A stretch of 64,000 nucleotides of DNA from Minisyncoccota bacterium. Lineage in GTDB: Bacteria > Patescibacteriota > Minisyncoccia > Phycocordibacterales > UBA1550. Made by a program: the position numbers and the translations under genes. The notes below the pieces were generated by a model that saw only the letters and a list, made by a program, of their open reading frames with translations, did no database searches and was not told the DNA's origin. Positions 23,918 through 49,683 of the stretch are shown piece by piece. The stretch's first letter is position 1, and the number at the start of each line of letters is the position of its first letter. Location: NCBI GenBank assembly GCA_023229865.1, contig JALNYL010000004.1:17773-81772 (forward strand). The letters run 5' to 3'.

Positions 23918-23946
23918 CTGAATCAGCAGATTCACGTCTTGGACGA
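23918..23946 (+). repeat. 29-bp palindrome-containing repeat, copy 1 (CTGAATCAGCAGATTCACGTCTTGGACGA)
   Basis: Exact or near-exact copies at 25529-25557 and 49655-49683. Contains TGAATC-AGCA-GATTCA and CGTC-TTG-GACG inverted repeats. Confidence 0.7.
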
Positions 23947-24125
23947 AATCGTCGTTCTCTACCTCTCAACCATTCAACCCCTCAATCTTTTCATTCCAAC
24001 AATTATTTGCTATCGCAGATAATTGTTGGAATTGGTTTTGCCTACTTTTCGTTTTTGAAACAAGGGGGCGCACTGTCTGCAAAAGGAAAAACAGCTGCCC
24101 ACTTGGGACAGCTGTTCTGAGGCTT

Positions 24126-24365
24126 TTAAAGTTTATTCAAAGCAGAGACATTAGAATCAAGCTTCGAGGCGACCGCCAGTTGTAAAACTGCAACTTTGGC
24201 GGGAATATCCTTTGCCACCAATCGCATCTTTGCCCCCGAGTGTGCTTCGACTAATTGAAGCACGTTGTTGGGGTAAGCGCTTTCGCACTTGTGACACGCA
24301 GTATTTTGGGGGTTATCAATCACGTGCCCCCCACAACTTGGACAAGACAAACCTGCGATAATCAT
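24126..24365 (-). CDS. Small zinc-ribbon protein (CPSCGG...CHKC), hypothetical
   Basis: SD GGAGGA 6 nt upstream of the ATG at 24365. A hairpin terminator lies downstream at about 24085-24115. Confidence 0.4.
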   Translation of the reverse strand: MIIAGLSCPSCGGHVIDNPQNTACHKCESAYPNNVLQLVEAHSGAKMRLVAKDIPAKVAVLQLAVASKLDSNVSALNKL

Positions 24366-24506
24366 ATGGATTCCTCCGTTTGGTGATTGAGAACAAGTAT
24401 CCTAATTAGTAAACTACTCTTTTGGAGGAATGAAGTCAAATTATAGAAATAATCTACAGACAGGGGTATAATACTTGTATATCAGCGAGCAATAATTATT
24501 AATAAT

Positions 24507-25229
24507 ATGTTCAATCTTGAAAACAAGGCGGCGAGGACGATTGGGAGTGCGCTCATTTTGAGCGCGGCGGTGTTTGGTGCGTTTTACTACAATGCACAGT
24601 CAGTATCACAGAGCGACGTGCTCTCGGTGACAGGCTCAACCAAGGAGACGGTTGATGCGGATCAGGCAAAGCTCATTATCTCGCTTTTGCGCACAGTTTC
24701 TCAGGGCTCACTTTCTTCGGGCAACATCTCTATTGCGCGCGATCGTGGCATCGTGCGCGCCCTCCTCGCAAAGCATGAAGTTGCTGAGACTGAAATCAGT
24801 GAAGGCCCCGTATCTATGAATCAAATGTATTCAAACGACCAAGCGACAAATCCCCACTACGAACTCCGTCAAACAATCATTGTGCAATCAGCAGACATTC
24901 AAAAGGTTACCAATATCGCCAAGGTAGTACCCGACCTCACAGCGCAGGGCGCGATTGTTTCTGTGGGCTCTCTCGAATACTACTACTCGAAACTCCCCGA
25001 GAAGCGCGTGGCTCTTTTGTCTGGCGCTATTAAAGATGCTCAAGCTCGCGCTCAGATGATTGCCGAGAGTACGGGTCGCAAGGTGGGCAACATCCGCTCG
25101 GCATCAAGTGGGGTAGTACAGGTGCTTCCGATAAACTCTATCGAAGTCTCTGATTACGGCTCATACGACACCTCAAGTATTAAAAAGGACATCATGGTGA
25201 CGGTAAAAGCATCGTTTAGTTTGAAATAA
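24507..25229 (+). CDS. SIMPL/DUF541-family periplasmic protein (YggE-like)
   Basis: N-terminal TM/signal and a domain pattern resembling SIMPL (VLSVTGSTKETVDADQAKLIISL...). Confidence 0.5.
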   Translation: MFNLENKAARTIGSALILSAAVFGAFYYNAQSVSQSDVLSVTGSTKETVDADQAKLIISLLRTVSQGSLSSGNISIARDRGIVRALLAKHEVAETEISEGPVSMNQMYSNDQATNPHYELRQTIIVQSADIQKVTNIAKVVPDLTAQGAIVSVGSLEYYYSKLPEKRVALLSGAIKDAQARAQMIAESTGRKVGNIRSASSGVVQVLPINSIEVSDYGSYDTSSIKKDIMVTVKASFSLK

Positions 25230-25246
25230 TCACCAAAAACCAAAAT

Positions 25247-25295
25247 AACTAAAACAGCGCAATAGGAAGCGATAGCTTCCTATTGCGCTGTTTTA
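25247..25295 (+). terminator. Long perfect hairpin terminator
   Basis: AAAACAGCGCAATAGGAAGC-gata-GCTTCCTATTGCGCTGTTTT. Confidence 0.6.
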
Positions 25296-25372
25296 GTTTT
25301 CACTACTTTACTTTCTGCAAAGGAGTATAATGTTTACATATCAGCGTGCGGTAATTTATTTATTAACTACAC

Positions 25373-26161
25373 ATGTTTAATCTACAAGGAAGGGTTGCTT
25401 TAGTTACGGGTGGTCGTCGCGGGATGGGCAAGGCTCATGCTCTTGCGCTTGCGAAGCAGGGGGCAAAGGTTGTCATCACCGACATCAACGTCAATGAGTG
25501 TGAGCTTGTTGCGGACGAGATCCGTGCGGCTGAATCAGCAGATTCACGTCCTGGACGAGAACTAGATGTCTCATGTTTCAATATGGACGTGTCGAACAAA
25601 GTCGATGTGGATGCGGTGTTTGATCAGGTTGTTGAGAAGTACGGTCGTCTCGACATTCTCGTGAACAACGCAGGTATCTATGAGTCGCATCCATTCCTGG
25701 AGCTCACCGAAGAGCAGTGGGACCGCACCATCAGTATCAATTTGAAGGGAGAGTTCCTCGTCGCTCAACGTGCCGCAAAAGAGATGGCGAAGAATAAGTA
25801 CGGTCGCATCATCAATATCGCATCTATCGCAAGTGGCGGGGTGGGTGTTGGTATTGCAGGTGGTGCACACTACACCGCATCAAAGGGTGGCATCATCGCC
25901 CTCACGGAGACGATGGCTATCGAGCTCGCGCCTCTCGGTATTAATGTAAATGCTATTGGCCCCGGCGCTATCAATACTCCTATGGCAGATGCAACAAAAA
26001 TGCCAAAAGAATATATGGATGCAATCCTCGCAGGGGTCCCACTCAAGCGCATGGGTGAATCAAACGAAGTTGCGGCGGCAGTTGTCTTCCTCGCATCCGA
26101 AGAAGCAAGCTACGTGACGGGCGCAACGCTCTACGTCGATGGTGGCTGGCTCGCAGCGTAG
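25373..26161 (+). CDS. SDR-family oxidoreductase (FabG-like) carrying an in-frame copy of the 29-bp repeat
   Basis: TGGRRGMGKAHALALAKQGAKVVI (TGxxxGxG), NNAG and YTASKGG (YxxxK). Repeat copy 2 at 25529-25557 encodes AESADSRPGRE within the coenzyme-binding region. Confidence 0.85.
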   Translation: MFNLQGRVALVTGGRRGMGKAHALALAKQGAKVVITDINVNECELVADEIRAAESADSRPGRELDVSCFNMDVSNKVDVDAVFDQVVEKYGRLDILVNNAGIYESHPFLELTEEQWDRTISINLKGEFLVAQRAAKEMAKNKYGRIINIASIASGGVGVGIAGGAHYTASKGGIIALTETMAIELAPLGINVNAIGPGAINTPMADATKMPKEYMDAILAGVPLKRMGESNEVAAAVVFLASEEASYVTGATLYVDGGWLAA

Positions 26162-26305
26162 GCCACAAAAAACAAACAGGGCGCGACCAAAGGTCGCGCC
26201 CTGTTTTGTTTTTGTAGACAATCCCGTCAGGGTGTGATAGTTTTCTCTCTGGCGTCAAAAGTTTAAAGCTTTTGATTTTTAGTACGTTACATGGAGAAAG
26301 TATAT

Positions 26306-26806
26306 ATGGCAAAGGTAATTTCGTATTCTGTGAATGTTCCGACCCCCGCCTCGGCGCTTGAAAAGGCCATAATGATGATCGATCCCAGTATCGCGCATCG
26401 GGTGTGTGGCTTCCGAATCGTCAAAGGCTCACGTAATGACAAAAGTGGGATGACGGTGAGCTTCTTTATTGAGAAGCCTGAAGATCTCGAACTCATCTCA
26501 AAATCATGGGACTTTGATACGGTTTCTTTTGAAGGTCAGTATGTCTTGAACATATTCCTTCGCTTCAAATCAAATCACTTCTTGAATGAAGCTCCCGACA
26601 TCAATGGCTTTATGCTCGAATGGTCGGCGGCATTGACGAAGTGGGTAAGTGTCCAGAGCGTCAATGTTTACCAAGCGCTCCTGTTTCACCCCGTTCGGTC
26701 AGTGGAATGTCTCATCGACGAAGAGGGGGAAGTGAAGATGCGAGTAAAGCTCGCACTCAAGGAAAAGATTCATCCCACGCTGTGGAATCTCCAAATAGTG
26801 TCATAA
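26306..26806 (+). CDS. Hypothetical protein
   Basis: SD GGAGAAAG 7 nt before the ATG at 26306. Followed by hairpin GCAGCCAATTGG-ttttta-CCAATTGGCTGC. Confidence 0.35.
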   Translation: MAKVISYSVNVPTPASALEKAIMMIDPSIAHRVCGFRIVKGSRNDKSGMTVSFFIEKPEDLELISKSWDFDTVSFEGQYVLNIFLRFKSNHFLNEAPDINGFMLEWSAALTKWVSVQSVNVYQALLFHPVRSVECLIDEEGEVKMRVKLALKEKIHPTLWNLQIVS

Positions 26807-26915
26807 AAAGGCGCAGCCAATTGGTTTTTACCAATTGGCTGCTTTGTTTTTTCGTGCAACAATTTGGCGTTTTGGTCAAAATAATGTATGGTAGGGGAAC
26901 TAAATATCATTATAT

Positions 26916-28388
26916 ATGGCAAAAGGCGACGTAATAATCCGTTTCGAAGATGTCTCGTTTGAGTACGGGCACAACAAACCTATTCTTGAGGAGGTTTCTT
27001 TCCCTATTCGTCAGGGCTCAAAGCTCACCCTTATGGGCCAAAACGGCGCAGGGAAGTCATCACTCTTTGGGCTCATTATGGAGACCAACAAACCAACCGA
27101 TGGCGATATTCATATCGTGCGCGGTACTTCTGTGGCTATTTCTCGCCAGGTGATTCCTCGTGACCAGCTCGACCTCACGGTTCGTGAATTTTTTGAAAAG
27201 TGTTTCGCGAAGAAGATGTACGACATCGATCCAAAGATTGATGAAGTGCTTGAGGTGGTAAATTTGAAGGGACACGAAAAGCTCCACGACCGTATTGTGA
27301 AGTCATTTTCTGGTGGACAGCAAGCACGCCTCCTTCTCGCATCAGCACTCATTCAGGATCCCGACGTACTTCTTCTCGACGAACCAACCAACAACCTCGA
27401 CAAGGCAGGCATCGCGCACCTCACCAAGTTCCTTCAGGAATACAAAAAAACGGTCATCGTCATTTCTCACGATGCAGAATTCTTGAACCTGTTTACCGAA
27501 GGCGTGCTCTATCTCAATGTGTACACGCGCAAAGTTGAGCAGTATGTGGGCAACTATTTCGACGTGGTAAAGCAGATCACGGCGCAGATCGAAAAGGAGA
27601 ATATGAAGAACGCTCAGCTCGCAAAAGAGATTCAGGCCAATAAGGACAAGGCAAACTTCTTTGCAATGAAGGGAGGACAGATGCGTATGGTGGCAAAGCG
27701 TATGCGTGAGAAGGCAGAGGAAATGGAAGAGGCGAAAGTTGATATCCGCAAGGAAGACAAAACGATTCGTCCCTTCACTATCCCTGCACAACCAGAAATC
27801 ACGGGAGCCATCCTCGAGCTTTCTTCATACACTGTGCTCAAAAACCACAAGCCCGTAGAGTGTACAACCAAGATTTCTCTCAAGCGCAAGCACCACCTCC
27901 TCCTTCAGGGGCCAAACGGCATCGGCAAATCGACACTCCTTGAGTCTATTGCAGCAGGCAAGGTGAAGGATATGAAGATTGCTGAGGGTATTCGCGTAGG
28001 ATACTACCGTCAGGATTTTTCAACACTTGATTTCAATGACACCGTGTATCAGTCGCTCGCTCGCGCAGCGCAGGCCGTCGACGGCAGACTTGATGAGGAA
28101 CGTATGCGCGCAACCGCAGCAAGCTTCCTTATTACCAGTGATATTATCTATACCAAAATCGGCAGTCTTTCAGAAGGGCAGAAGGGTCTTGTGGCATTTG
28201 CTCAGCTCGTTCTCGAGAAACCAGGCCTCCTCATTCTCGACGAGCCGACCAACCACATCAACTTCCGTCATTTGCCCGTCATAGCAAAGGCGCTCGACCA
28301 ATACGAAGGCGCGATGATTCTCGTTTCTCACGTCCCCGAGTTTGTCCACCAGATTCGCATCGACGAGGTGCTCGATTTGGAGAAGTAG
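26916..28388 (+). CDS. ABC-F family ATPase (two tandem NBDs, no TMD), translation-associated
   Basis: Two Walker A motifs (GQNGAGKSS; GPNGIGKST), two signature motifs (FSGGQQARLLLA; LSEGQKGLVAFA) and two Walker B motifs. Confidence 0.8.
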   Translation: MAKGDVIIRFEDVSFEYGHNKPILEEVSFPIRQGSKLTLMGQNGAGKSSLFGLIMETNKPTDGDIHIVRGTSVAISRQVIPRDQLDLTVREFFEKCFAKKMYDIDPKIDEVLEVVNLKGHEKLHDRIVKSFSGGQQARLLLASALIQDPDVLLLDEPTNNLDKAGIAHLTKFLQEYKKTVIVISHDAEFLNLFTEGVLYLNVYTRKVEQYVGNYFDVVKQITAQIEKENMKNAQLAKEIQANKDKANFFAMKGGQMRMVAKRMREKAEEMEEAKVDIRKEDKTIRPFTIPAQPEITGAILELSSYTVLKNHKPVECTTKISLKRKHHLLLQGPNGIGKSTLLESIAAGKVKDMKIAEGIRVGYYRQDFSTLDFNDTVYQSLARAAQAVDGRLDEERMRATAASFLITSDIIYTKIGSLSEGQKGLVAFAQLVLEKPGLLILDEPTNHINFRHLPVIAKALDQYEGAMILVSHVPEFVHQIRIDEVLDLEK

Positions 28389-28402
28389 GGTATACTGTAG
28401 GG

Positions 28403-28714: not shown

Positions 28715-28808
28715 CGATTACAATATTTTCACGAACAAAAACTCGCTGGTAATACCTGCGAGTTTTTGCTAGTCTCAAGGGAGATAATTCTTTATAGAGG
28801 AGAAGGTT

Positions 28809-31404: not shown

Positions 31405-32898
31405 ATGGAACACAAAAAAACATTTTCACGTGGCGCAAGCTCTAGTGCGCGTCCACGTACAGGGGGTGCTTCGTCGCCTCGCTCGTATGGTAGTTCGCGT
31501 CCACGTACTGATGGCGCGTCTTCTTCTCGCTCGTATTCGAGCTCACGCCCAGCAAGCTCACGTACTTATGGGTCTCGCCCAGCTTCAAGCTCGTCAGCTC
31601 GTTCATACTCTGCACGACCTGCTTCAACTTCGTCGAGTTCAGCAGTTCGTCCTGCTTCAACTGCATCGACAACAACGCGCGTATACCCAGCAAAGCCACG
31701 TCCATTTTCAGCACGTCCACCACTTGGTCGCTCATTTAGCGCGTCACGTGGAGGCTCAAGCCGTGGAGGGGGAAAGCGTGGAGCTCGTAAGGGCCAGCAC
31801 ATCGATATTAATAAATTTATCAACAAGACCGTCATCACGGAGGAGGCTGTAGTGTACACACCAGAGCACCTCTTTAAGGATTTCGTTATTGACGAGCGCC
31901 TCAAGGCAAATATTCTCGGCAAGGGTTACAACGAGCCAACCCCTATTCAGGATCGTGTGATTGCGCATATTTTGCACGGACATGATGTGGTTGGTATCGC
32001 AAACACAGGTACTGGCAAGACTGCTGCGTTCCTCATTCCGCTTATCGACAAGGTTCTCAAGAATCCAAAAGAGAAGGTGATCGTACTTGCGCCAACACGT
32101 GAGCTCGCTCAGCAGATTGAAATGGAACTCAAGGGCTTCGTAAAAGGTTTCAAGATTTTCTCAGTATGTTGCGTGGGTGGAGCGCCTATCGGACGCCAGA
32201 TTTCTGATCTCCGTTACCAGCACAACTTTATTATTGGAACACCAGGCCGCGTAAAGGATTTGATTGAGCGCAAGCTTATCAACCTTGCAGACTTCAAGTC
32301 AGCAGTCCTCGACGAAGCAGACCGTATGCTCGATATGGGATTTATCCACGACATGCGTTACATGATGGACCTTATGCCAAAGGATCGTCACACACTTTTC
32401 TTCTCAGCAACACTTTCTCCAGAAATTGCTGCGCTCATCAAGGACTTCCTCAAGGAGCCTGTGATGGTATCCGTGAAGACTCAGGACACATCAAAGAATG
32501 TTGAGCAGGATGTTGTGAAGATTAAGGCAGGGGAGGATAAACTCGAAGTTCTTCATGACCTTTTGATCGACCCAGAGTTCAAGAAGGTTATTATCTTCGG
32601 ACGCACCAAGCACGGTGTAGAAAAGCTCGCCGTAGCTCTCAATAAGAAAGGATTCAAAGCTCAGTCAATTCACGGCGACAAAAACCAGGGACAGCGTCAG
32701 CGCGCGCTCGACACCTTCAAGAAGGGTCTCGCGCAGATCCTCGTGGCAACAGATGTTGCAGCACGTGGTCTCGATATCTCAGGCGTGTCACACGTAATCA
32801 ACTACGATATTCCAGAAACCTATGATGACTATGTACACCGTATCGGTCGTACTGGCCGCGCAGGGCAGAAGGGAAAGGCGCTTACCTTCATCGGGTAA
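31405..32898 (+). CDS. DEAD-box ATP-dependent RNA helicase with N-terminal Ser/Arg/Pro-rich low-complexity extension
   Basis: Q motif, Walker A ANTGTGKTAAF, DEAD box (VLDEADRMLDMGF), SAT, and HRIGRTGRAG motif VI. Confidence 0.9.
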   Translation: MEHKKTFSRGASSSARPRTGGASSPRSYGSSRPRTDGASSSRSYSSSRPASSRTYGSRPASSSSARSYSARPASTSSSSAVRPASTASTTTRVYPAKPRPFSARPPLGRSFSASRGGSSRGGGKRGARKGQHIDINKFINKTVITEEAVVYTPEHLFKDFVIDERLKANILGKGYNEPTPIQDRVIAHILHGHDVVGIANTGTGKTAAFLIPLIDKVLKNPKEKVIVLAPTRELAQQIEMELKGFVKGFKIFSVCCVGGAPIGRQISDLRYQHNFIIGTPGRVKDLIERKLINLADFKSAVLDEADRMLDMGFIHDMRYMMDLMPKDRHTLFFSATLSPEIAALIKDFLKEPVMVSVKTQDTSKNVEQDVVKIKAGEDKLEVLHDLLIDPEFKKVIIFGRTKHGVEKLAVALNKKGFKAQSIHGDKNQGQRQRALDTFKKGLAQILVATDVAARGLDISGVSHVINYDIPETYDDYVHRIGRTGRAGQKGKALTFIG

Positions 32899-32904
32899 AC
32901 TGCA

Positions 32905-32945
32905 AAAAACTCCCCACCATTCAGCCGAATGGTGGGGAGTTTTTA
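32905..32945 (+). terminator. Terminator hairpin with TTCAGCCGAA loop
   Basis: AAAAAACTCCCCACCATTCAGCCGAATGGTGGGGAGTTTTT. Confidence 0.6.
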
Positions 32946-35280: not shown

Positions 35281-35283
35281 GTA

Positions 35284-35337
35284 AAACAGACACAGGGCCC
35301 GCGATTCGGCTGAATCGCGGGCCCTGTGTCTGTTTTT
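35284..35337 (+). terminator. Bidirectional terminator hairpin, inverted version of the GATTCAGCCGAATC family
   Basis: AAACAGACACAGGGCCCGCGATTCGGCTGAATCGCGGGCCCTGTGTCTGTTTTT. Confidence 0.6.
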
Positions 35338-38087: not shown

Positions 38088-38462
38088 GAACTTTACCGTA
38101 CTTGTTTCAGAAAGCCGCGCAATCTATATACATTTGCCTAGTCCACATCATGCGCCGCAATCGGACCGTATGCTTTGTAGCATCCTCGTGCTTGCGGTAG
38201 GCTGTGACTTCATCTCCGCTTGGGTCATGAATGACCCAATCCTTGTGACTGCAAGTTTCAGTGTGGCACCTGCAATAGTTCTGGCGAACATGGAACCTGC
38301 GCGGGGAGTCAGGGTCTGCTGGTAGTAATTCAAGGCTCATCTTGCTCTCCTCTTGTCTGTTAATGGTTGAATCCTTTTGCAGTCTAGCAAACTATGTTCT
38401 TACTGCAAGTTATTTTTGATAAAGAAAAACCTCGCAACATGCGCGAGGTTAAGGTAGGGGAA

Positions 38463-38525
38463 TGGAGTCCTGTACAAGAATCGAACTTATGACAGTGCTT
38501 TTCAGGGCACTTACGTTGCCACTCC
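38463..38525 (-). ncRNA. tRNA-like element (acceptor-like stem GGAGT/ACTCC, T-arm TTCGATT, encoded 3' CCA) lacking a canonical D-arm
   Basis: Minus strand GGAGTGGCAACGTAAGTGCCCTGAAAAGCACTGTCATAAGTTCGATTCTTGTACAGGACTCCA. Could not be folded as a standard tRNA by eye. Confidence 0.3.
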
Positions 38526-38629
38526 GTCAACAGGCCTTGATTCCTCCACTAGCTCTATTTTATCAAAGGGAAAGGAAAAGAAAAAGGGCCCCACGTCGTT
38601 GTGGGGCCCTGGGTTGCGGCCGGAGCCGA

Positions 38630-38680
38630 TCAGGTTGTGATCTTGATACTGTTGGTACCATCGCGGATGAAGTTCATCAT
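38630..38680 (-). CDS. Small ORF, 15-16 aa (M-MNFIRDGTNSIKITT), unknown function
   Basis: SD AAAGGAGGTGG immediately upstream. Followed by GC-rich terminator GGGGCCCCACAACGACGTGGGGCCC plus T-run (plus coords about 38586-38612). Confidence 0.35.
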   Translation of the reverse strand: MMNFIRDGTNSIKITT

Positions 38681-38758
38681 CCACCTCCTTTCTCTCTGTT
38701 GACCGGTGTGCGTCATTGTGACGCGGGGTTGATTGGCGTAGGGGCCGGCATGCTGGAG

Positions 38759-38890
38759 TTAACCGGCGCCCAGCACCATGGCCGCCAGGCCGCCGTGGGT
38801 GGTGGAATTGCCGCTGCAGCGCGTGATCAGATAGCTCTTGGTGTTGGCGCCGATCGTCGGGCCAGCAGTCGCGGGCATGGTCTTCTTCAT
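38759..38890 (-). CDS. Small protein, 43 aa (MKKTMPATAGPTIGANTKSYLITRCSGNSTTHGGLAAMVLGAG), unknown function
   Basis: Near-perfect SD TAAGGAGGT 7 nt upstream. GC-rich codons. Lies downstream of the consensus promoter at 39075-39102 and a leader of about 180 nt. The opposite-strand 182-aa ORF at 38462-39010 is probably an artefact. Confidence 0.45.
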   Translation of the reverse strand: MKKTMPATAGPTIGANTKSYLITRCSGNSTTHGGLAAMVLGAG

Positions 38891-39074
38891 GTGATACCTC
38901 CTTATGGAAAGAACAGCGTTGTCCTCCGGCAAAAGCGCGGAGGGATGGATGTCCTGGCGGGCGAATGGCGCGGCGACTTCCTCGTTAGAAACACTGGAAG
39001 CGGCCGATAAGCCCTTGCGGTCGTGGGCGAGTCAATCCCGCCACAGAGCCGTACGTGCCAACCAGAACAAAAGC

Positions 39075-44013: not shown

Positions 44014-45333
44014 ATGGATAAATCACCAAAACCTTTTCAAATTGCTGTTACTGGATTTTTCGTAGTACTCTTCATCCTCGGTTTCTTGGGATTTTCGGGA
44101 AAGCTCCCTCTCCCTTCAAGTAGTAAGGAGGTGAGTTATGGAGAAGTGACGCTTTGGGGAAGTATCTCAAGAGAGTCAATGCAGTCTCTTCTTGCGAACA
44201 ATTTTCGTGATGAAAAAAGTGTAAGCATTAAATATGAACAGAAAAACGCGACGACATTTACGCGGGATTTTGTGGAAGCACTCGCAAGTGGCAAGGGGCC
44301 CGATCTTGTGATTTTGCCACAGGAGGAACTTTTGAAAAATCTCAACAAGCTCGCCGTCATCCCTTATCAGACTATTCTTGAGCGTGATTTTAAAAATACG
44401 TTTATCGCAGAAGGGGAGATGTTTTTGCGCCCTGAGGGGACTGTTGCGTTGCCGTTTATGGTTGATCCAATCGTAATGTATTGGAATCGTGACATCTTTA
44501 CCAACGCTCTTATCGCAAAGCCACCCGTACTCTGGTCAGAGTTCTATGATTTGGTACCAAAGATCACCGTCCGTGATCGAACGGGGAACATCACCAGAAG
44601 CCTCGTGCCTTTTGGTGAATATAGAAATGTTACCAATGCAAAAGAAATTCTTTCGGTACTCCTGATGCAGGCGGGGAGCCCGGTGGTTACGAGCAAGAAT
44701 GGCAACCTCACCGCAGCGCTCGTTATTCAAGGACCCCTCAACGTGGAAAATCCTGTAGTTACTGCAATGCGTTTCTATACAGAATTTTCAAAATCTGAAA
44801 AAGATTCATACTCTTGGAATCGTTCATTACCACAATCACGCTCAATGTTTGAAGCGGGAGATCTCGCGCTTTACTTTGGGTATGCGAGTGAATACCAGTC
44901 GATTAAGTTGAAAAATCCTCACCTTAATTTTGACGTGGCGATGATTCCTCAAGTAGGGAAGACAGCAAATAAACTTACGTTTGGACGCATGCATGGCATC
45001 GCAATCGTGGGCGCAAGTAAAAACCAAGGCGGTGCCCTCCGCGCCGCGATGCTTCTTTCGGGAAGCAGTGTGATCACAGGTATTAGTGGTATTACGGGGC
45101 TTCCTCCTGTTCGTCGTGACCTCATCGCGATTCCTCCTGTCGACGCGGCACAGTCTGTCTTTTACGATTCTGCGTTGATTTCTCGCGCATGGTATGACCC
45201 ATCTCCTATTGAGACCAATGCTATTTTTATGACGATGATTGATAGTGTAAACTCGGGACGAAGCAGTATGAATGAAGCACTCGCGGTTGCACACAGTAGC
45301 CTCGCGAAGTTGTTCCAGGATTATCAGCAGTAA
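44014..45333 (+). CDS. Extracellular solute-binding protein (ABC transporter SBP-like), N-terminal TM anchor
   Basis: N-terminal hydrophobic anchor. Overall SBP family 1-like pattern. Weak assignment. Confidence 0.45.
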   Translation: MDKSPKPFQIAVTGFFVVLFILGFLGFSGKLPLPSSSKEVSYGEVTLWGSISRESMQSLLANNFRDEKSVSIKYEQKNATTFTRDFVEALASGKGPDLVILPQEELLKNLNKLAVIPYQTILERDFKNTFIAEGEMFLRPEGTVALPFMVDPIVMYWNRDIFTNALIAKPPVLWSEFYDLVPKITVRDRTGNITRSLVPFGEYRNVTNAKEILSVLLMQAGSPVVTSKNGNLTAALVIQGPLNVENPVVTAMRFYTEFSKSEKDSYSWNRSLPQSRSMFEAGDLALYFGYASEYQSIKLKNPHLNFDVAMIPQVGKTANKLTFGRMHGIAIVGASKNQGGALRAAMLLSGSSVITGISGITGLPPVRRDLIAIPPVDAAQSVFYDSALISRAWYDPSPIETNAIFMTMIDSVNSGRSSMNEALAVAHSSLAKLFQDYQQ

Positions 45334-45344
45334 TATTAAAAATC

Positions 45345-45722
45345 ATGACTCAAAAAATCACCACTACCGCAATTGCAGCAGCTATTCTCTCTCTCCCTCT
45401 CTTGTCTGCTGCTCAAGTCGGAATCCCTTGCAATGGTCCTGATTGTACCTTCGACTCGCTTATCCAGCTAGTGAATAACATCATTAAGTTTCTTATGTTT
45501 GGCGTAGCCGTCCCTCTCGCTGCTATTGGCTTTATGTTTGTGGGGGCAAAAATGGTTTTGTCATCTAATAAAGAGTCGGCAAAGACAGAAGCGAAGGAAA
45601 GTTTTGGGAATATTGTGAAAGGTTTCCTTATTATGCTTGGGGCGTACGTTGTGGTAAAAACAATCGTCTACTCATTTATTACTGATGAACAGAAGACTTT
45701 TATGGGATTCCTGTTTCAATAA
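45345..45722 (+). CDS. Pilin-like small membrane protein (TrbC/VirB2-like architecture), paralog 1
   Basis: Signal peptide, then TM1, a short Lys/Glu loop and TM2 (FLMFGVAVPLAAIGFMFVGAKMVL...FLIMLGAYVVV). Confidence 0.4.
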   Translation: MTQKITTTAIAAAILSLPLLSAAQVGIPCNGPDCTFDSLIQLVNNIIKFLMFGVAVPLAAIGFMFVGAKMVLSSNKESAKTEAKESFGNIVKGFLIMLGAYVVVKTIVYSFITDEQKTFMGFLFQ

Positions 45723-45742
45723 TTAGGAAGATAATATACAAT

Positions 45743-46246
45743 ATGAATACTATGAAAAAGATACTTGGTGGACTCGTGGTTCTAGGGGTGTTTTTAGGAG
45801 GGACTTCTGTCGCATTGGCTGTTCTGCCTTGTGCCGCTGTCCCTAGCCAGTATAAAAATGTGTGGACAGACCTTCCTGCTAGTGCGCAGCAATCTTACTA
45901 CGACATCTATTGTTCTCCTGGCACCGGCTCTACGGGGGCATCCGGCTCTACTGGTTCGGGGGCTACCTTGTCCGCAAATACGAAGTTGCAAAATCCCATC
46001 AAGTATTCAACTTTTTCTGAGTTTGCTGCAGCAATAACCAAAACAGCTGTTCAGGTCCTCCTTCCATTCATCGTCCTTGCCTTCATCTACTCAGGCTTCC
46101 TCTTTGTGAAAGCACAGGGTAACGAAAAAGAGCTCGAAGAAGCAAAGCAGGCAATCTGGTACAGTCTCATTGGTGCCTTCATTCTCCTTGGGGCGTGGGG
46201 ATTTGCGCAGATTATTAGTCAGACGGTTTCAACAATTACCCAGTAA
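45743..46246 (+). CDS. Pilin-like small membrane protein, paralog 2 (with Gly/Ser/Thr-rich insert)
   Basis: Signal peptide and the same C-terminal two-TM core (VLLPFIVLAFIYSGFLFV...AIWYSLIGAFILLGAWGF). Confidence 0.4.
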   Translation: MNTMKKILGGLVVLGVFLGGTSVALAVLPCAAVPSQYKNVWTDLPASAQQSYYDIYCSPGTGSTGASGSTGSGATLSANTKLQNPIKYSTFSEFAAAITKTAVQVLLPFIVLAFIYSGFLFVKAQGNEKELEEAKQAIWYSLIGAFILLGAWGFAQIISQTVSTITQ

Positions 46247-46252
46247 TCTACT

Positions 46253-46537
46253 ATGGACTTCAAAGAATTTGTTAATTTTCTTGTTGGCACACTTATCAAG
46301 CCACTTTTCTCGCTCTTTTTGGGTGCTGCAGTAGTCTTCTTTTTGTGGAATATGATGGGGGTCATTCAGAAGAACGATCAACCAGAAGAGCTCGCAAAGA
46401 TGAAAGAAAAGGCTATTTGGGGGATTATCGCTATCGCGGTGATGGTCTCAATGTGGGGATTGGTCAACTTTTTTGCAGGGTCACTCAGGCTGACCAATAC
46501 TCCTCTTGACCTAGAGCGTTTCAACCAAACCTTGTAG
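46253..46537 (+). CDS. Pilin-like small membrane protein, paralog 3
   Basis: AAVVFFLWNMMGV...AIWGIIAIAVMVSMWGLVNFF. Confidence 0.4.
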   Translation: MDFKEFVNFLVGTLIKPLFSLFLGAAVVFFLWNMMGVIQKNDQPEELAKMKEKAIWGIIAIAVMVSMWGLVNFFAGSLRLTNTPLDLERFNQTL

Positions 46538-46620
46538 TTTTCTCGGGGGTTTCGTATAATTAACAGATACGATCAATTAGTATTCGTACATCATAATTAA
46601 CATTTAATAAATTAATAAAC

Positions 46621-46968
46621 ATGAAAAAAGTTATTGTATTGGGTGCCTTTTTTGCCCCATTTATCGCGAGTGCTCAGATTGCCCAGGGGGCAAGTACGGT
46701 TCCTGGTCTTATTGCGTTCTTGAAGGACGCGCTTAGCACCGCTACGGTCCTTATTCTTGCAGCTGCAGTTGTATACTTCCTTTGGAACGTATTCGGCTTC
46801 GTTATGGCAGCAGGGGACTCAGATAAGCGCGCAGAGAAGCAGAGCGGTATTATCTACGGCGTTATCGGTATCGCGGTGATGGTATCTATCTGGGGCCTCG
46901 TAAACTTCCTTACGTCTTCAGCAAAGCTCGACACAACAACACGTACAGCTCCATCACTTTCTCTCTAA
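46621..46968 (+). CDS. Pilin-like small membrane protein, paralog 4
   Basis: Signal peptide. AAAVVYFLWNVFGF...IIYGVIGIAVMVSIWGLVNFL. Confidence 0.4.
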   Translation: MKKVIVLGAFFAPFIASAQIAQGASTVPGLIAFLKDALSTATVLILAAAVVYFLWNVFGFVMAAGDSDKRAEKQSGIIYGVIGIAVMVSIWGLVNFLTSSAKLDTTTRTAPSLSL

Positions 46969-46994
46969 TCCACGTTTCTTAAACCAACACCATT

Positions 46995-47237
46995 ATGAAC
47001 ATTATGCAGAGAATCAATGAGGCTATTCTTCAACCAATAGTTTCACTCCTTATGGCAGCGGCCGTAGCATATTTCTTGTTTGGTGTTATGAAGTTTGTGA
47101 AGGATCAGGGGAGTGAAGAATCTCAAGTAGAAGGGAAGAAGCATATGATGTGGGGGATTATTGGTCTTTTTATTATGGTGAGCGTTTGGGGGATATTGAA
47201 CTTTATCAATTCCTTCGTTATGGGATTTTCTCAGTAA
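46995..47237 (+). CDS. Pilin-like small membrane protein, paralog 5
   Basis: MAAAVAYFLFGVMKF...MMWGIIGLFIMVSVWGILNFI. A hairpin terminator follows at about 47255-47300. Confidence 0.4.
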   Translation: MNIMQRINEAILQPIVSLLMAAAVAYFLFGVMKFVKDQGSEESQVEGKKHMMWGIIGLFIMVSVWGILNFINSFVMGFSQ

Positions 47238-47353
47238 AGCGCCCAAACAAAAGAGAAGCCCTGCGTATGAACTACGCGGGGCTTTTCTTTTTATGCACAA
47301 AAAGAAAAGCCCCACAGCATTGCGCTGCGGGACTTTGAGGGTTGAATTGCAAA

Positions 47354-48139
47354 TTAATACTGGAGCTTCACGGAGACTAACACCTCGGGGGCATACTTTG
47401 CTGCGACCCCCGCATGAAGCATTCCATTAAAATGTCCGATTTTCGTGCCACAGTCTTGGAACCACCCCTTTGATTGGTCGTTTTCCCAAAGAAACATCCT
47501 CCCGCCAGGGCAGTAAATATCAAACACGACTCCCGTTGGGATTGGGGGAAGCTCGACATACTCATCTGGTGGGCCATCAACAATGACGGACTCGTCGTCG
47601 GGGTTGCCGTTGTTATCCTCAGCGAGGGTGTAGACGTCGGGATCGAATTTCACCCAATGACTTTTCACCTCGTGAGTGACCTCCGTGCTTGCCGCCGGCG
47701 ATGAGCTGCCGAAGGCCTCCTTGAAGAAGGTGGGGTGATTTGCTGCTCTCACACTAGCCTTCATGTCTTTCCATGTTTGGTAGACAGGTTCGGGGAGGAT
47801 GAGACCAATGGTGGCTATTGCGAAATAGCCAACCACCATCACTTTTGTTATATCGGAGACCTTGCTTCCCGTGAACAAGAGCCAGAGCCCCATGATGTGC
47901 AGGGGGATAACGACGACGGCGCCAATCACGATAAACATGCTGGAATCGTCGGGGAGCAGGTAGGCGATGCAGATGGTCACAATAAACAGGATAATCATTG
48001 CCATCCAGTTCCTGCGAACCTTTTCTTCATCCTCCTTTTTTATTTCTTCAGGAGTTGATGTGGTGGGCTTTTGTTTCTCGTTAGTCTTGGAGGATGATTG
48101 AGGCACTCTCCCGTTCATTGCATCAACTTTGCGTTGCAT
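47354..48139 (-). CDS. Membrane protein (hypothetical), second gene of a minus-strand operon
   Basis: Three or four TM helices then a soluble C-terminal domain. Overlaps the upstream gene by 17 nt. Confidence 0.4.
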   Translation of the reverse strand: MQRKVDAMNGRVPQSSSKTNEKQKPTTSTPEEIKKEDEEKVRRNWMAMIILFIVTICIAYLLPDDSSMFIVIGAVVVIPLHIMGLWLLFTGSKVSDITKVMVVGYFAIATIGLILPEPVYQTWKDMKASVRAANHPTFFKEAFGSSSPAASTEVTHEVKSHWVKFDPDVYTLAEDNNGNPDDESVIVDGPPDEYVELPPIPTGVVFDIYCPGGRMFLWENDQSKGWFQDCGTKIGHFNGMLHAGVAAKYAPEVLVSVKLQY

Positions 48140-49160
48140 TTTTGTGCTCCTTATTGTGAGTTATGGCGAGAGGCAGTCTTTCTCCAAGGCTCAATACATC
48201 GCCTTTGAAGTTTGATACCGCCCCTGCGTCAATTTCGCGATGAAGAATTTCCATGCCGCCATCGTAGCCAGCAGCAGTTCTCAGCCGCGCATCAAGTGCT
48301 TTGGCTTGTGCTACCCCGAGTGTCTCAATGCCGCGTGCTTTTTGTACAGCCGCATCTGCTTCGAGTCTCGCGATTTCAACTGCCGTAGTGGCCGCTTTTT
48401 CTTCTTCGCTTGCGCCGACAAGTTCAAAACTTACGAAGTCAACCTTGTGAACAGCAACCCCGAAGGTATCGATCACTCCCAGCGTACTGCCAGAAGTTTT
48501 ATTCACCTTTTCGATGTCAGAAGAGAAAGAACTCCCTTCACCTTCTTTATCGAGTGCACGGAAGTCGTCGTATGTTCTGCCACGTGCAAAATCTGCAATG
48601 GCCCCCTTCACGGTTGCGTTGGCGTTATTAAGCCATTTCCCCTTGAAGATAAAGACAAGTTTGATTGGGTTCACGACTCGGTATGTGACATTGACGAGGA
48701 GATTGATTTTGAAGTTTCCCTTGAGATCAACCCCCTCAACAAGAATGGGGTAGGAAGACAAGAAATACAGCGAATTCACATACTCCGACTTGCGGACGAT
48801 ATCAAAACCTTCTTCGTCTTTCGACGAATCGCCTTTAGTCAACTTGTCCCAGTCAAAGTGCCACACATGGATTTCTTTGAGCGGATACAGCAAGCTCACG
48901 AGAAACACGCCGAGAATGCTGAAGGGGCGAGAAAAGTTACTGTTCTCTCCTTCGGCAATGAGGCCAGTTTTGTAATCGTAATGGTAACCCGTCCCCTTAA
49001 GGTTCGGGATTACTTTTTCACACGACTCGCCAGCCACCACAAACTTGATCTCCCCGGTGGGGACATAACAAGTTTGTTTTTCGTAACGTGCCCCGTAGAG
49101 GAGCCAGACACAGAAAGCAATTACTGCAACAACCAAAAGTCCAACAATAAATGTGAACAT
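48123..49160 (-). CDS. SPFH/Band-7-like membrane protein (hypothetical)
   Basis: N-terminal TM, central domain with a prohibitin/stomatin-like pattern and a coiled-coil C-terminus. SD AGGAGAA. Weak family call. Confidence 0.4.
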   Translation of the reverse strand: MFTFIVGLLVVAVIAFCVWLLYGARYEKQTCYVPTGEIKFVVAGESCEKVIPNLKGTGYHYDYKTGLIAEGENSNFSRPFSILGVFLVSLLYPLKEIHVWHFDWDKLTKGDSSKDEEGFDIVRKSEYVNSLYFLSSYPILVEGVDLKGNFKINLLVNVTYRVVNPIKLVFIFKGKWLNNANATVKGAIADFARGRTYDDFRALDKEGEGSSFSSDIEKVNKTSGSTLGVIDTFGVAVHKVDFVSFELVGASEEEKAATTAVEIARLEADAAVQKARGIETLGVAQAKALDARLRTAAGYDGGMEILHREIDAGAVSNFKGDVLSLGERLPLAITHNKEHKNATQS

Positions 49161-49218
49161 GTTCTTCTCCTAAGTGAGTTAATTTGCAATTATCAATGAA
49201 CCGATAATCTCTGACAAC

Positions 49219-49246
49219 ATTATACACTTTTTGTCAAAAAAGTCAA
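49219..49246 (-). promoter_or_regulatory. Strong sigma-70 promoter (TTGACT-16 nt-TGTATAAT) for the minus-strand operon 49160-47354
   Basis: -35 at 49241-49246 and extended -10 at 49219-49226 on the minus strand. Confidence 0.6.
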
Positions 49247-49293
49247 GGTCTGCGGGTGGCAGGAAAGGCTTGGGAAATAAGACAAATTACGAG

Positions 49294-49375
49294 TGAGCAT
49301 GGGGAGACTTGAACTCCCAATCCTTACAGAATGCGCTTCTGAGACGCACGCGTATACCAATTCCGCCACATGCTC
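49294..49375 (-). tRNA. tRNA-Leu (anticodon CAG)
   Basis: Acceptor GAGCATG/CATGCTC, anticodon loop CTCAGAA, long variable arm, T-arm GGGAGTTCAAGTCTCCC. No CCA encoded. Confidence 0.75.
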
Positions 49376-49384
49376 ATTTCAGTT

Positions 49385-49425
49385 TAATTGTGCCGAGGAG
49401 AGGACTTGAACCTCCATGGGTCGCC
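49385..49425 (-). pseudogene. Partial tRNA-Leu 3' half (variable arm + T-arm + acceptor 3' strand) without a matching 5' half
   Basis: Minus-strand CGGGGCGACCCATGGAGGTTCAAGTCCTCTCCTCGGCA is nearly identical to the 3' half of tRNA-Leu(TAG). No D-arm or anticodon arm could be found. Confidence 0.45.
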
Positions 49426-49545
49426 CCGCCTTTTCTTAATGCCTGTTTCGTGTTCGCTCAACAACGGTATTTGCGCATTAGCGCACCAGATTTAAATCAA
49501 AACAGTTTGATTTAAATTCACTCGGCAAGCATATCGTGTACAAAG

Positions 49546-49627
49546 TGCTGGGAAGAGGACTTGAACCTCCATGGGTCACCCCGCTTGCTCCTAAGGCAAG
49601 TGCGTCTACCAATTTCGCCATCCCAGC
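49546..49627 (-). tRNA. tRNA-Leu (anticodon TAG)
   Basis: Acceptor GCTGGGA/TCCCAGC, anticodon loop CTTAGGA, long variable arm, T-arm GGAGGTTCAAGTCCTCT. Confidence 0.75.
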
Positions 49628-49654
49628 ACTCTATGCACGATGCGTCTACAATTT

Positions 49655-49683
49655 CTGAATCAGCAGATTCACGTCTTGGACGA
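49655..49683 (+). repeat. 29-bp repeat, copy 3, just upstream of the tRNA cluster
   Basis: CTGAATCAGCAGATTCACGTCTTGGACGA, identical to copy 1. Confidence 0.7.

What the first reader, a model, noticed from the sequence alone, without database searches (positions are those of the whole stretch)
23918..49683. 29-bp repeat CTGAATCAGCAGATTCACGTC(T/C)TGGACGA present three times, once in-frame inside an SDR oxidoreductase gene
Copies lie at 23918-23946 (intergenic, after the DGQHR gene), 25529-25557 (inside the SDR gene, encoding AESADSRPGRE in the region normally occupied by a short loop) and 49655-49683 (upstream of the tRNA cluster). The element holds two small palindromes (TGAATC-agca-GATTCA and CGTC-ttg-GACG). 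A 16-bp dyad of this kind is typical of a dimeric regulator operator. Survival of an intact copy inside a coding frame suggests a small mobile or recombination-associated sequence (REP/MITE-like) or a recently spread binding site.
Basis: seen in the sequence. Interest (0 to 1): 0.55.

Follow-up and report, generated by a model that had tools for sequence, protein, structure and literature searches.

The report
Tiny 27-base mobile hairpin insertion element
The three repeats are copies of a very small (about 27-30 base) two-hairpin DNA element that has repeatedly inserted itself into genomes of one group of ultra-small (CPR/Patescibacteria) bacteria, including in-frame into essential genes, where it is translated as a nine-residue loop; it is not a regulator binding site.

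Summary
In detail: three + strand copies, with none expected by chance.

- **Host and spread:** the window comes from a Yonathbacteria-like CPR bacterium. The same 27-mer occurs at about 40 unrelated sites in other Paceibacteria-type MAGs and metagenomes. It was not found in viral, phage or plasmid collections.
- **Structure:** diverged relatives keep two adjacent hairpins through compensatory changes (97.9% of cells paired; 6 of 10 pairs changed on both sides).
- **Insertion:** the SDR copy is a true 27-nt insertion, absent from the 120 best homologues. Other in-frame copies sit in IF-2, ArgRS (two sites), S5, S9, L10, GatA and a COX3-like gene. All use stop-free frames, mostly the one reading ESADSR(L/P)GR.
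- **Recency:** unbiased homologue samples show patchy, recent insertions. Four IF-2 lineages carry it at the same codon, in both orientations, and each one's nearest relative lacks it.
- **Junctions:** there is no target duplication, and a few target bases are often replaced.

Best reading: a non-autonomous ultra-small mobile element, moved in trans by an unidentified enzyme that recognises its structure. The operator idea is not supported. Closest analogues are the Nostoc 21-27-nt dispersed repeats, REP/RAYT elements and Rickettsia RPEs, but it fails the REP and MITE membership tests.

The parts
23918..23946 (+). Copy 1 (T variant, tail A). Intergenic: 3' of the DndB/DGQHR-like gene, at the right edge of a low-GC island, upstream of a terminator-like hairpin.
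   Evidence: CM hit 49 bits
25530..25558 (+). Copy 2 (C variant, tail A). In-frame insertion in the SDR gene, translated as ESADSRPGR. The adjacent GAACTA replaces the GGTGGC (Gly-Gly) found in orthologues.
   Evidence: CM hit 46.7 bits; loop between helix 40-55 and strand 66-70 in the AF2 model
49655..49683 (+). Copy 3 (T variant, tail A). In the spacer between tRNA-Lys(CTT) and tRNA-Leu(TAG), antisense to the tRNA genes.
25531..25546 (+). Hairpin 1 of copy 2: TGAATC-AGCA-GATTCA (6-bp stem, 4-nt loop).
25547..25557 (+). Hairpin 2 of copy 2: CGTC-CTG-GACG (4-bp stem, 3-nt loop). The T/C polymorphism is the first loop base.
25373..26161 (+). Host gene of copy 2: short-chain dehydrogenase/reductase, 262 aa here against 253 aa in 97 of the 120 best homologues.
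51806..51808 (-). Empty target in this genome: the Arg codon (ATC CGT GAG) of infB (51140-52663, minus strand). In four other lineages this codon is replaced by the element, in either orientation.
49781..49849 (-). Structured repeat next to the tRNAs. Its homologue in L008/L039 carries the 27-mer in the apical region; here the apex holds a different 25-nt sequence, so this is the unoccupied carrier.

Best explanation
The 29-mer is a copy of a non-autonomous, ultra-small mobile DNA element confined to a clade of CPR bacteria (Yonathbacteria / Paceibacteria-type).

Anatomy. The unit is a 27-nt core, TGAATCAGCAGATTCACGTC(Y)TGGACG, usually preceded by a pyrimidine. It is followed by a loosely conserved 1-3-nt tail: CAR in most copies, A in all three window copies. 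It folds into two directly abutting hairpins.

Shown here:
- It arrives as an insertion with a net gain of 27 nt.
- It makes no target-site duplication and has no terminal inverted repeats.
- It goes in either orientation.
- It often replaces 2-6 target bases.
- It lands in coding and non-coding DNA.
- It has hit the same IF-2 codon independently in several lineages.

Inferred: copies inside genes survive only in the four stop-free frames. They mostly use the frame giving the hydrophilic peptide ESADSR(L/P)GR, in surface loops or disordered extensions, and the Leu-to-Pro (T-to-C) form is favoured in genes.

Inferred mechanism: a trans-acting enzyme recognises the two hairpins on single-stranded nucleic acid, which is why stems co-vary in diverged family members, and copies or moves the unit to new sites with a weak 5' ...(T)C preference. 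An HUH/Y1 (IS200/RAYT-like) single-strand transposase is the leading candidate class. This step is not shown, and some junction features fit it poorly.

In the window, the three copies share the rare A tail. This suggests multiplication within this genome.
For: - **Not chance:** 0 matches expected in shuffles.
- **Self-contained unit:** 56 exact 27-mers at about 40 unique sites have unrelated flanks. They come from about 13 species-representative MAGs plus metagenomes, all of the CPR Paceibacteria type.
- **Insertion shown at DNA level:**
  - The SDR gene compared with three orthologues gives +27 nt.
  - S5 in L012 compared with L056 gives a clean +27 nt.
  - In IF-2, three filled/empty pairs show 30 nt in and 3 nt out.
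  - In ArgRS, two different sites are reciprocally empty.
- **Recent and repeated:** in unbiased samples of 120 homologues each:
  - S5 has 3 perfect copies, 1 copy with two mutations, 1 diverged reverse-orientation copy and 115 empty.
  - IF-2 has 4 carriers at the same codon, 3 antisense and 1 sense. Each carrier's nearest relative (86-96% identity) is empty.
- **Structure under selection:** 19 distinct family members keep .((((((....))))))((((...)))). with 97.9% of cells paired. 6 of 10 pairs change on both sides, and 0 of 500 shuffles reach the observed covariation score. Slid controls give 16.5-53.7% paired.
- **Translated, not spliced:** all in-gene copies use stop-free frames.
- **C variant:** found at 7 unique sites, all inside genes or long ORFs. 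The T variant is at about 10 coding and 22 non-coding sites (my count).
- **Nesting:** copies sit nested in other repeats and in terminator loops. A flanking stem of at least 6 bp surrounds 4 of 22 non-coding sites against 5% of random positions, p = 0.025.
- **Candidate enzyme class is present in these lineages:** a Y1_Tnp gene scoring 31.2 bits (cut-off 23) lies 2.1 kb from a copy in L013. A partial homologue lies at the edge of L045.
Against: - No mobilising enzyme is identified. The window has no Y1, integrase, transposase or RT gene among the ORFs scanned.
- The Y1 gene in L013 is flanked by its own, different hairpin repeat, ACCGAGGTTAAACCTCGGT.
- Copy number is very low for a selfish repeat: 1-4 exact copies per species-representative MAG.
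- Orientation relative to GC skew is only weakly biased, 27:14. IS200/IS605-type elements usually show a strong bias.
- Replacement of 2-6 target bases, and use of both orientations at one site, are not typical of HUH transposition. They fit capture at a double-strand break better.
- Exact identity across genera was partly guaranteed by searching with the exact 27-mer (ascertainment).
- No transposition intermediate or within-population polymorphism was examined.
Confidence: 0.7

Rival explanations
1. Break-repair filler. The 27-30-bp unit is an abundant short DNA (or cDNA) by-product that end-joining captures at double-strand breaks. Target choice would then reflect where a site-specific nuclease cuts, rather than a transposase acting on the element.
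For: At the IF-2 site the element sits in both orientations at the identical position, with 3 target nt lost each time. Loss at SDR is 0-6 nt and at S5 is 0 nt. The 3' boundary is fuzzy (C/A then purine-rich). There is no TSD and there are no TIRs.
Against: This does not explain why diverged family members keep both hairpins through compensatory changes. It also leaves open what produces the fragment. No nuclease or source locus was seen. Whether these CPR genomes have end-joining was not tested.
Confidence: 0.12
2. Host-serving cis-acting DNA site, such as a centromere-like, terminus or fork-polarity site, or a DNA-uptake sequence. Selection or uptake-biased recombination would keep it identical.
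For: Copy number is low and identity is exact across genera. All three window copies are co-oriented on the G-rich strand. CPR bacteria are thought to depend on DNA uptake (general knowledge, not tested here).
Against: - Sites are present or absent between relatives of 86-96% protein identity and are not positionally conserved.
- Decayed copies exist.
- Orientation against GC skew is only 27:14.
- Density is far below that of known uptake sequences.
- A 27-bp site cannot arise by point mutation, so an insertion mechanism is needed in any case.
Confidence: 0.08
3. Operator for a dimeric transcription factor.
For: The element contains a 16-bp imperfect dyad, TGAATC-N4-GATTCA.
Against: Locations include the interior of IF-2, ArgRS, S5, S9, L10, GatA and SDR genes on either strand, terminator loops and tRNA spacers. 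No conserved promoter placement was seen. Family members change the half-site sequence while keeping intrastrand pairing. Close relatives lack the site.
Confidence: 0.03
4. Functional RNA motif: a protein-binding or processing double hairpin acting in transcripts, which would explain its frequency in translation genes.
For: Stems co-vary. 8 of 11 host genes identified by Pfam are translation-related. Most in-gene copies are in the sense orientation.
Against: Antisense copies occur in IF-2 (three lineages) and in COX3. Copy 3 is antisense to the tRNA genes. There is no Rfam match. Presence or absence among close relatives argues against a required regulatory role.
Confidence: 0.05
5. Chance similarity or an assembly or adapter artefact.
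For: None beyond the fact that most of the data are MAG or metagenome assemblies.
Against: 0 matches expected by chance. The element is restricted to one bacterial clade across independent studies. It sits in frame within otherwise collinear genes. Variants carry compensatory substitutions.
Confidence: 0.01

Closest known systems
[quoted passage not shown] 2008, Genome Res 18:1484). The paper is not held. It is cited, and details are from memory.
   Same: - The size class (21-27 nt) is well below that of MITEs.
- There is evidence of mobility from filled and empty sites.
- Copies are nested inside other repeats and hairpins.
- There is no encoded protein, and the mobilising enzyme is unknown.
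   Different: The phylum differs (CPR against cyanobacteria). No sequence relation is known, and none could be tested because the paper is not held. Copy number here is much lower. Here there are many in-frame insertions in essential genes and one recurrent, codon-precise target.
REP / REPIN elements mobilised by RAYT (Y1 HUH) transposases (PMC3116915; PMC3733652)
   Same: These are short structured palindromic repeats without a coding capacity. Their stems co-vary, and they are presumed to be recognised as single-stranded DNA. Y1_Tnp genes occur in at least two carrier genomes.
   Different: - There is no 5' GTAG or CGTC head. CGTC here lies 3' of hairpin 1 and forms the stem of hairpin 2.
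- There are two different hairpins instead of one.
- There is no doublet (REPIN) organisation.
- Copies number in the units, not the hundreds.
- About 40% of sites are inside genes.
- The one nearby Y1 gene is flanked by a different repeat.
Rickettsia palindromic elements (RPE), 'selfish DNA in protein-coding genes' (Ogata et al. 2000, from memory; RPE-4 and RPE-6 mentioned in PMC3733652)
   Same: Palindromic repeats are inserted in frame in essential genes of a reduced-genome, host-dependent bacterium. They are translated and tolerated in surface regions.
   Different: RPEs are roughly 100-150 bp, against 27-30 nt here. The lineage and sequence are unrelated. A recurrent same-codon insertion in both orientations is, to my knowledge, not described for RPEs.
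IS200/IS605 family and its miniature derivatives (PATEs); single-strand 'peel and paste' transposition (PMC6006769 for the HUH superfamily)
   Same: There is no target duplication and there are no terminal inverted repeats. Hairpins act as recognition elements, and insertion occurs next to a short sequence.
   Different: Those elements keep a strict 4-5-nt target at the left end, do not delete target bases and show strong strand bias relative to replication. Here the 5' flank is only C/T (often TC), 2-6 nt are often replaced, and the skew bias is weak.
DNA uptake sequences (Neisseria DUS, Pasteurellaceae USS)
   Same: They are identical across related species, occur in genes in tolerated frames and in terminator hairpins, and can be kept uniform by a molecular drive.
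   Different: DUS/USS cores are about 9-12 bp and occur roughly once per kb. This element is 27 bp, occurs a few times per genome and arrives as an insertion.

Membership tests
REP / REPIN (RAYT-associated) | Conserved unpaired GTAG or CGTC tetranucleotide at the 5' head of a single stem-loop (Di Nocera 2013) | tested here: not met
   CGTC is present, but 3' of hairpin 1 and base-paired as the 5' arm of hairpin 2. The reverse strand has GACG before the hairpin.
REP / REPIN (RAYT-associated) | High copy number (tens to hundreds per genome), predominantly extragenic, often as inverted doublets | tested here: not met
   There are 1-4 exact copies per species-representative MAG and 3 in this 64-kb window. 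About 17 of 40 unique sites lie inside genes or long ORFs. No inverted doublets were seen. Whole genomes could not be read.
REP / REPIN (RAYT-associated) | Cognate RAYT gene flanked by the same repeats | tested here: not met
   tblastn finds no Y1 gene in the window. The Y1_Tnp gene of L013 is flanked by a different hairpin repeat. The rest of each genome was not searchable.
MITE (miniature inverted-repeat transposable element) | Terminal inverted repeats and a target-site duplication | tested here: not met
   The ends TGAATC... and ...GGACG are not inverted repeats. Five filled/empty comparisons show no duplication, and several show loss of 2-6 target nt.
IS200/IS605-type single-strand elements (miniature derivatives) | No TSD, subterminal hairpins, fixed 4-5-nt target abutting one end, strand bias with replication | tested here: inconclusive
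   The absence of a TSD and the presence of hairpins are met. The target is only Y, often TC. Skew bias is 27:14. Loss of target bases is atypical.
Nostoc-type small dispersed repeats (SDR) | 21-27-nt dispersed repeat, mobile, nested within other repeats or hairpins, no known transposase | tested here: met
   Size, filled/empty sites and nesting are shown. Sequence relatedness to SDR4-6 is not testable because the paper and sequences are not held. This is therefore a likeness of kind, not homology.
Rickettsia palindromic elements (RPE) | Palindromic repeat inserted in frame in protein-coding genes; about 100-150 bp | tested here: inconclusive
   In-frame insertion in essential genes is met. 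The size criterion is not met (27-30 nt).
Transcription-factor operator | Dyad-symmetric duplex site at conserved positions in promoters of regulated genes | tested here: not met
   Sites lie inside genes, in terminator loops and in tRNA spacers. They are absent in close relatives. Half-sites vary while intrastrand pairing is kept.
CRISPR repeat | Regularly spaced array of repeats separated by unique spacers | tested here: not met
   Window copies are 1.6 kb and 24 kb apart. There are no arrays in any of the loci. The only tandem pair (L008/L039) is a 963-bp segmental duplication.
DNA uptake sequence | Short (about 9-12-bp core) motif at roughly one per kb, over-represented genome-wide | tested here: not met
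   The core is 27 bp. There are 3 copies per 64 kb here and 1-4 per MAG elsewhere.

The most novel reading that the evidence does not exclude
The element is written into DNA by a dedicated, still unknown insertion system that recognises both the double hairpin and specific targets. Evidence for this is the same IF-2 codon being replaced in four lineages in both orientations. That would make it a new kind of ultra-small mobile element and enzyme pair in minimal CPR genomes, rather than a passive rider on known HUH transposases or on break repair.
Probability: 0.2. Interest if true: 0.85.

Novelty: new variant of a known kind. Interest (0 to 1): 0.66.

Why it matters
Mobile elements this small are almost undocumented. 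The Nostoc 21-27-nt repeats are the only close precedent I know of, and their mechanism has never been solved.

This family offers several things that precedent does not:
- The host genomes are about 1 Mb, so candidate enzymes are few.
- The family has clear structural constraints: two co-varying hairpins.
- Filled and empty sites can be resolved to the base.
- One target is hit repeatedly in both orientations.

Together these make the mechanism directly testable.

The finding also shows that essential translation proteins of CPR bacteria (IF-2, ArgRS, S5, S9, L10, GatA) acquire nine-residue loops from selfish DNA. This bears on how protein insertions arise in reduced genomes, and on annotation and phylogenetics of these lineages.

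Tried and rejected
- **Integrated-island att sites** (copies 1 and 3 are identical and 25.7 kb apart). Rejected: the flanks do not extend the repeat, the interval holds housekeeping genes (gyrA, S1, DEAD helicase and others), no integrase was seen, and the same 27-mer occurs singly in many genomes.
- **Known RNA family.** Nothing at Rfam gathering or E-value thresholds.
- **Phage or plasmid origin.** 0 hits in IMG/VR with exact and degenerate patterns, and 0 in INPHARED phages and PLSDB plasmids.
- **CGTC-tagged REP membership.** The orientation of the tag does not fit.
- **Ancient conserved insertion under nucleotide-level selection.** I first inferred this from S5 and IF-2 sites with diverged flanks. 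I withdrew it after unbiased homologue samples showed patchy carriers with empty nearest relatives and decayed copies. The exact-match search had biased the sample.
- **Strong replication-strand bias.** Only 27:14.
- **Insertion generally into hairpin loops.** A loose MFE test did not differ from random positions. A stricter test gave a modest enrichment, 4 of 22 against 5%.
- **Adjacent HUH transposase.** None in the window or in most loci. The L013 Y1 gene has its own repeats.
- **The 9-nt insert TTGAACCAA at the IF-2 site in L064 as a deletion scar of the element.** Only 6 of 9 bases match, so this is left open.
- **Elhai et al. 2008.** The paper could not be read.
- **Empty orthologous sites for window copies 1 and 3.** None could be obtained.

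Full report
**1. The observation**

The pattern CTGAATCAGCAGATTCACGTCYTGGACGA occurs three times in the window, all on the + strand.

| Copy | Coordinates | Variant |
|---|---|---|
| 1 | 23918-23946 | T |
| 3 | 49655-49683 | T |

100 dinucleotide-preserving shuffles gave no match, and no further copy appears at up to 3 mismatches. The repeat does not extend into the flanks. As single-stranded DNA either strand folds into two abutting hairpins, TGAATC-AGCA-GATTCA and CGTC-YTG-GACG, at -6.3 kcal/mol with z about -3.7 to -4.1.

**2. Setting**

The window is bacterial. It has sigma-70-like promoters and intrinsic terminators, and its proteins are closest to Candidatus Yonathbacteria and other Paceibacteria (CPR/Patescibacteria).

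- Copy 1 lies 85 nt after a DndB/DGQHR-like gene. That gene and an N6/N4 methylase form a low-GC island of 33-35% GC against about 47% elsewhere. A terminator-like hairpin follows the copy.
- Copy 2 is inside an SDR gene.
- Copy 3 is in the spacer between tRNA-Lys and tRNA-Leu(TAG), antisense to the tRNAs.

The genes scanned between 17 and 63 kb are housekeeping: RNR, DEAD helicase, S1, gyrA, IF-2, ClpB, MiaA and others. I found no transposase, integrase or reverse transcriptase.

**3. The SDR copy is an insertion**

Of the 120 best homologues, 97 are 253 aa long and none contains the segment. The loop has 6 residues in 91 of them and 15 in the window protein. DNA of the three closest orthologues (L052, L053, L054) lacks exactly 27 nt. 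The adjacent Gly-Gly codons (GGTGGC) read GAACTA in the window. An AlphaFold model is good in this N-terminal part and poor in the C-terminal part. It puts the insert in the loop between helix 40-55 and strand 66-70.

**4. The 27-mer elsewhere**

An exact scan with TGAATCAGCAGATTCACGTCNTGGACG gave these results.

| Collection | Result |
|---|---|
| One genome per species | 20 loci in about 13 MAGs, all CPR of the Paceibacteria type |
| JGI/ENA metagenomes | 31 loci |
| IMG/VR (exact and degenerate patterns) | none |
| INPHARED phages | none |
| PLSDB plasmids | none |

After removing redundant loci there are about 40 unique sites with unrelated flanks. The base before the core is always a pyrimidine: C in 45 and T in 11 of the 56 instances. 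The base after it is mostly C (42 of 56) and is followed by purine-rich positions. All three window copies have A at that position.

**5. A family with a conserved structure**

A mismatch scan of the fetched DNA found diverged relatives, well above the shuffled background. Nineteen distinct members keep the two-hairpin structure.

- 97.9% of cells are paired.
- 6 of 10 pairs change on both sides (for example UA to CG, CG to UA, and CGUC/GACG to CGGC/GCCG or GGGC/GCCC).
- No shuffle out of 500 reaches the observed covariation score.
- Pairing drops to 16.5-53.7% when partners are slid by 1-3 columns.

The members were picked by mismatch count, which does not favour compensatory pairs. A covariance model built from them finds no extra copy in the window. 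Some intergenic regions (L012 around 6050-6360, L036 around 6620-7130) hold clusters of partial and complete, often decayed, members in both orientations.

**6. Where it lands**

About 17 of the 40 unique sites lie in genes or long ORFs. Pfam identifies the following hosts, in addition to the SDR in the window.

| Host gene | Loci |
|---|---|
| Arginyl-tRNA synthetase, two different sites, reciprocally empty | L009, L014 |
| IF-2 | L011/L022, L021, L040 |
| GatA-type amidase | L051 |
| Ribosomal protein L10 | L024 |
| Ribosomal protein S5 | L012, L017, L027 |
| Ribosomal protein S9 | L032 |
| COX3-like protein | L019 |

Only the four stop-free frames are used.

- Sense ESADSR(L/P)GR is by far the most common.
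- Sense LNQQIHVLD occurs once.
- Antisense RP(R/G)RESADS occurs in three loci, plus one more seen at protein level.
- Antisense VQDVNLLIQ occurs once, in an unconfirmed ORF.

The copies are therefore translated, not removed.

The C variant turns Leu into Pro in the common frame. It occurs at 7 unique sites, all in genes or long ORFs, whereas T occurs at about 10 coding and 22 non-coding sites (my count; hypergeometric p about 0.001). This fits protein-level selection on the inserted peptide.

Non-coding copies are often nested.

- Some sit in the apex of terminator-like hairpins (L041, L043).
- Some sit in a roughly 90-nt carrier repeat, of which one copy without the element exists (L044).
- Some sit in the internal loop of the 'GTCTTTGCGAG...GAAGCAATCC' repeats, for which empty copies are seen in L015 and L049.
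- One sits in the apex of a structured repeat whose homologue in the window (49781-49849, minus strand) is unoccupied.

A flanking perfect stem of at least 6 bp encloses 4 of 22 non-coding sites, against 5% of random positions (p = 0.025). A looser test showed no difference from random.

**7. Age and recurrence**

At first the S5 and IF-2 sites looked like old insertions whose core had been kept while the flanks diverged. That was an artefact of searching with the exact 27-mer. Unbiased samples tell a different story.

Among the 120 best S5 homologues:
- 3 carry the perfect peptide.
- 1 carries a copy with two substitutions (L058).
- 1 carries a diverged member in reverse orientation at another position (P0147/L057).
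- 115 are empty, including the closest relatives of the carriers.
- L012 against L056 is a clean +27 nt.

Among the 120 best IF-2 homologues:
- 4 carry the element, all at the same alignment column.
- 3 are antisense and 1 is sense.
- Each carrier's nearest relative (86-96% identity) is empty.

At the DNA level, a 30-nt block replaces the same Arg or Cys codon in all three pairs examined. The block is the core plus CA(G), or C plus the core plus CA. The window's own infB (51140-52663, minus strand) has the empty site, ATC CGT GAG, at 51806-51808.

Repeated independent hits on one codon in both orientations imply target preference at the DNA level, on top of selection for tolerated positions.

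**8. Mechanism: what is shown and what is inferred**

Shown:
- A fixed unit of about 27-30 nt.
- Insertion without target duplication or terminal inverted repeats.
- Either orientation.
- Frequent replacement of 2-6 target bases.
- A weak 5' pyrimidine (often TC) preference and one strong hot spot.
- Structural covariation within the family.
- Decay of older copies.
- Restriction to one CPR clade.

Inferred: a trans-acting protein recognises the double hairpin on single-stranded nucleic acid and copies or moves the unit.

HUH/Y1 transposases (IS200/IS605 TnpA, RAYT) are the known enzymes for hairpin elements without duplications. One such gene (PF01797, 31.2 bits against a cut-off of 23) lies 2.1 kb from a copy in L013, and a partial homologue lies at the edge of L045. 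However, that gene is flanked by its own different hairpin repeat. None is in the window. GC-skew orientation is only 27:14. Loss of target bases is also not what peel-and-paste transposition does.

Capture of a short DNA at a nuclease-made break would explain the junctions and the two orientations, but not the covariation.

I put about 0.7 on 'trans-mobilised ultra-small mobile element'. Of that, perhaps a third goes specifically to an HUH-type enzyme.

**9. Comparison with known systems**

It behaves most like the 21-27-nt small dispersed repeats of Nostoc (Elhai et al. 2008). I know that work only from citations and from memory, because the paper is not held. It also resembles Rickettsia palindromic elements, which insert in frame into essential genes of a reduced genome.

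It fails the defining features of several families:
- REP/REPIN: no 5' GTAG or CGTC head, no doublets, low copy number, no cognate RAYT (and above).
- MITEs: no inverted ends, no duplication.
- CRISPR repeats: no arrays.
- Uptake sequences: wrong length and density.
- Operators.

Two literature searches found no report of such an element in CPR bacteria.

**10. Verdict**

It is a new variant of a rare kind of very small mobile repeat. Its targets are unusual (essential translation genes, with one recurrent codon), and its hosts have minimal genomes in which the responsible enzyme should be findable.

Main limits:
- MAG and metagenome data only.
- No whole-genome census.
- No enzyme identified.
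- No read-level evidence of ongoing movement.
- No empty sites recovered for window copies 1 and 3.

Noticed in passing
window 21100-23900: A low-GC island (33-35% GC against about 47%) holds an N6/N4 DNA methylase (21211-22155) and a DndB/DGQHR-like gene (22118-23833). It sits between the ribonucleotide reductase small subunit and copy 1 and is probably an acquired defence or modification module. The relative L053 has different genes upstream of SIMPL.
   Followed up: partly
window 49390-49442 (minus strand): A 53-nt fragment is 83% identical to the 3' half of tRNA-Leu(TAG) (49545-49597) and lies between two intact tRNA-Leu genes. It looks like a remnant of an integration or duplication event in the tRNA cluster.
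   Followed up: no
window 49725-49849 and about 50110-50190 (minus strand): A repeated structured sequence lies upstream of tRNA genes ('gtctcgactg[ac]aaggagaggcga[ag]tcc...' plus the GAGCCGGGGTCG...TTAGTAACTCG hairpin). It has no Rfam match. Its homologue in L008/L039 carries the 27-mer in its apex.
   Followed up: partly
window 8607-8654, 14377-14424, 32897-32944, 35282-35329: Four bidirectional terminator-like hairpins have different, compensating stems but the same apex, ATTCAGCCGAAT. The motif is not found in any of the other about 420 kb of fetched CPR loci. It may be a second, genome-specific small loop element or terminator family.
   Followed up: partly
L060 3160-3185 (SDR orthologue P0084): A different 21-nt hairpin insert, GCCCG-CCTGCC-GGCGA-GGCAGG (peptide ARLPARQ), sits in the same SDR loop that holds copy 2 in the window. 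That loop tolerates, or attracts, small hairpin insertions in more than one lineage.
   Followed up: partly
L013 5268-6190: A Y1_Tnp (IS200/RAYT-like) gene is flanked on both sides by an about 70-nt direct repeat ending in the hairpin ACCGAGGTTAAACCTCGGT. A further inverted copy lies inside the gene region. This looks like a separate REP/RAYT-like system in a carrier genome.
   Followed up: partly
L001, L003, L007, L013, L015, L020, L049; window 61047-61091 and 61216-61260: A widespread nested-hairpin repeat, 'GTC(T/A)TTGCGAG ... GAAGCAATCC ... GGATTGCTTC ... CTCGCAA(A/T)GAC', serves as a frequent landing place for the 27-mer. The window has a possibly related pair of repeats (D12, 'GTCATTGCGAGG...') after tRNA-Trp.
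   Followed up: partly
window 38466-38536 (minus strand): Rfam calls a tRNA (35.3 bits, gathering score 29) that ARAGORN does not report. It overlaps the start of ORF 38462-39010, which has no Pfam hit.
   Followed up: no
L064 (IF-2 of P0262), codons after ...GAA CAC: A 9-nt insert, TTGAACCAA (peptide LNQ), lies at the same IF-2 hot spot with the Arg codon retained. It matches 6 of 9 bases of the start of the element. It could be a deletion remnant or could be unrelated.
   Followed up: partly
window 46414-47203: Three tandem small ORFs share a conserved C-terminal segment (repeat D2). The neighbouring ORF 45743-46246 matches T4SS pilin (PF18895). This is a paralogous pilin-like gene cluster.
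   Followed up: no
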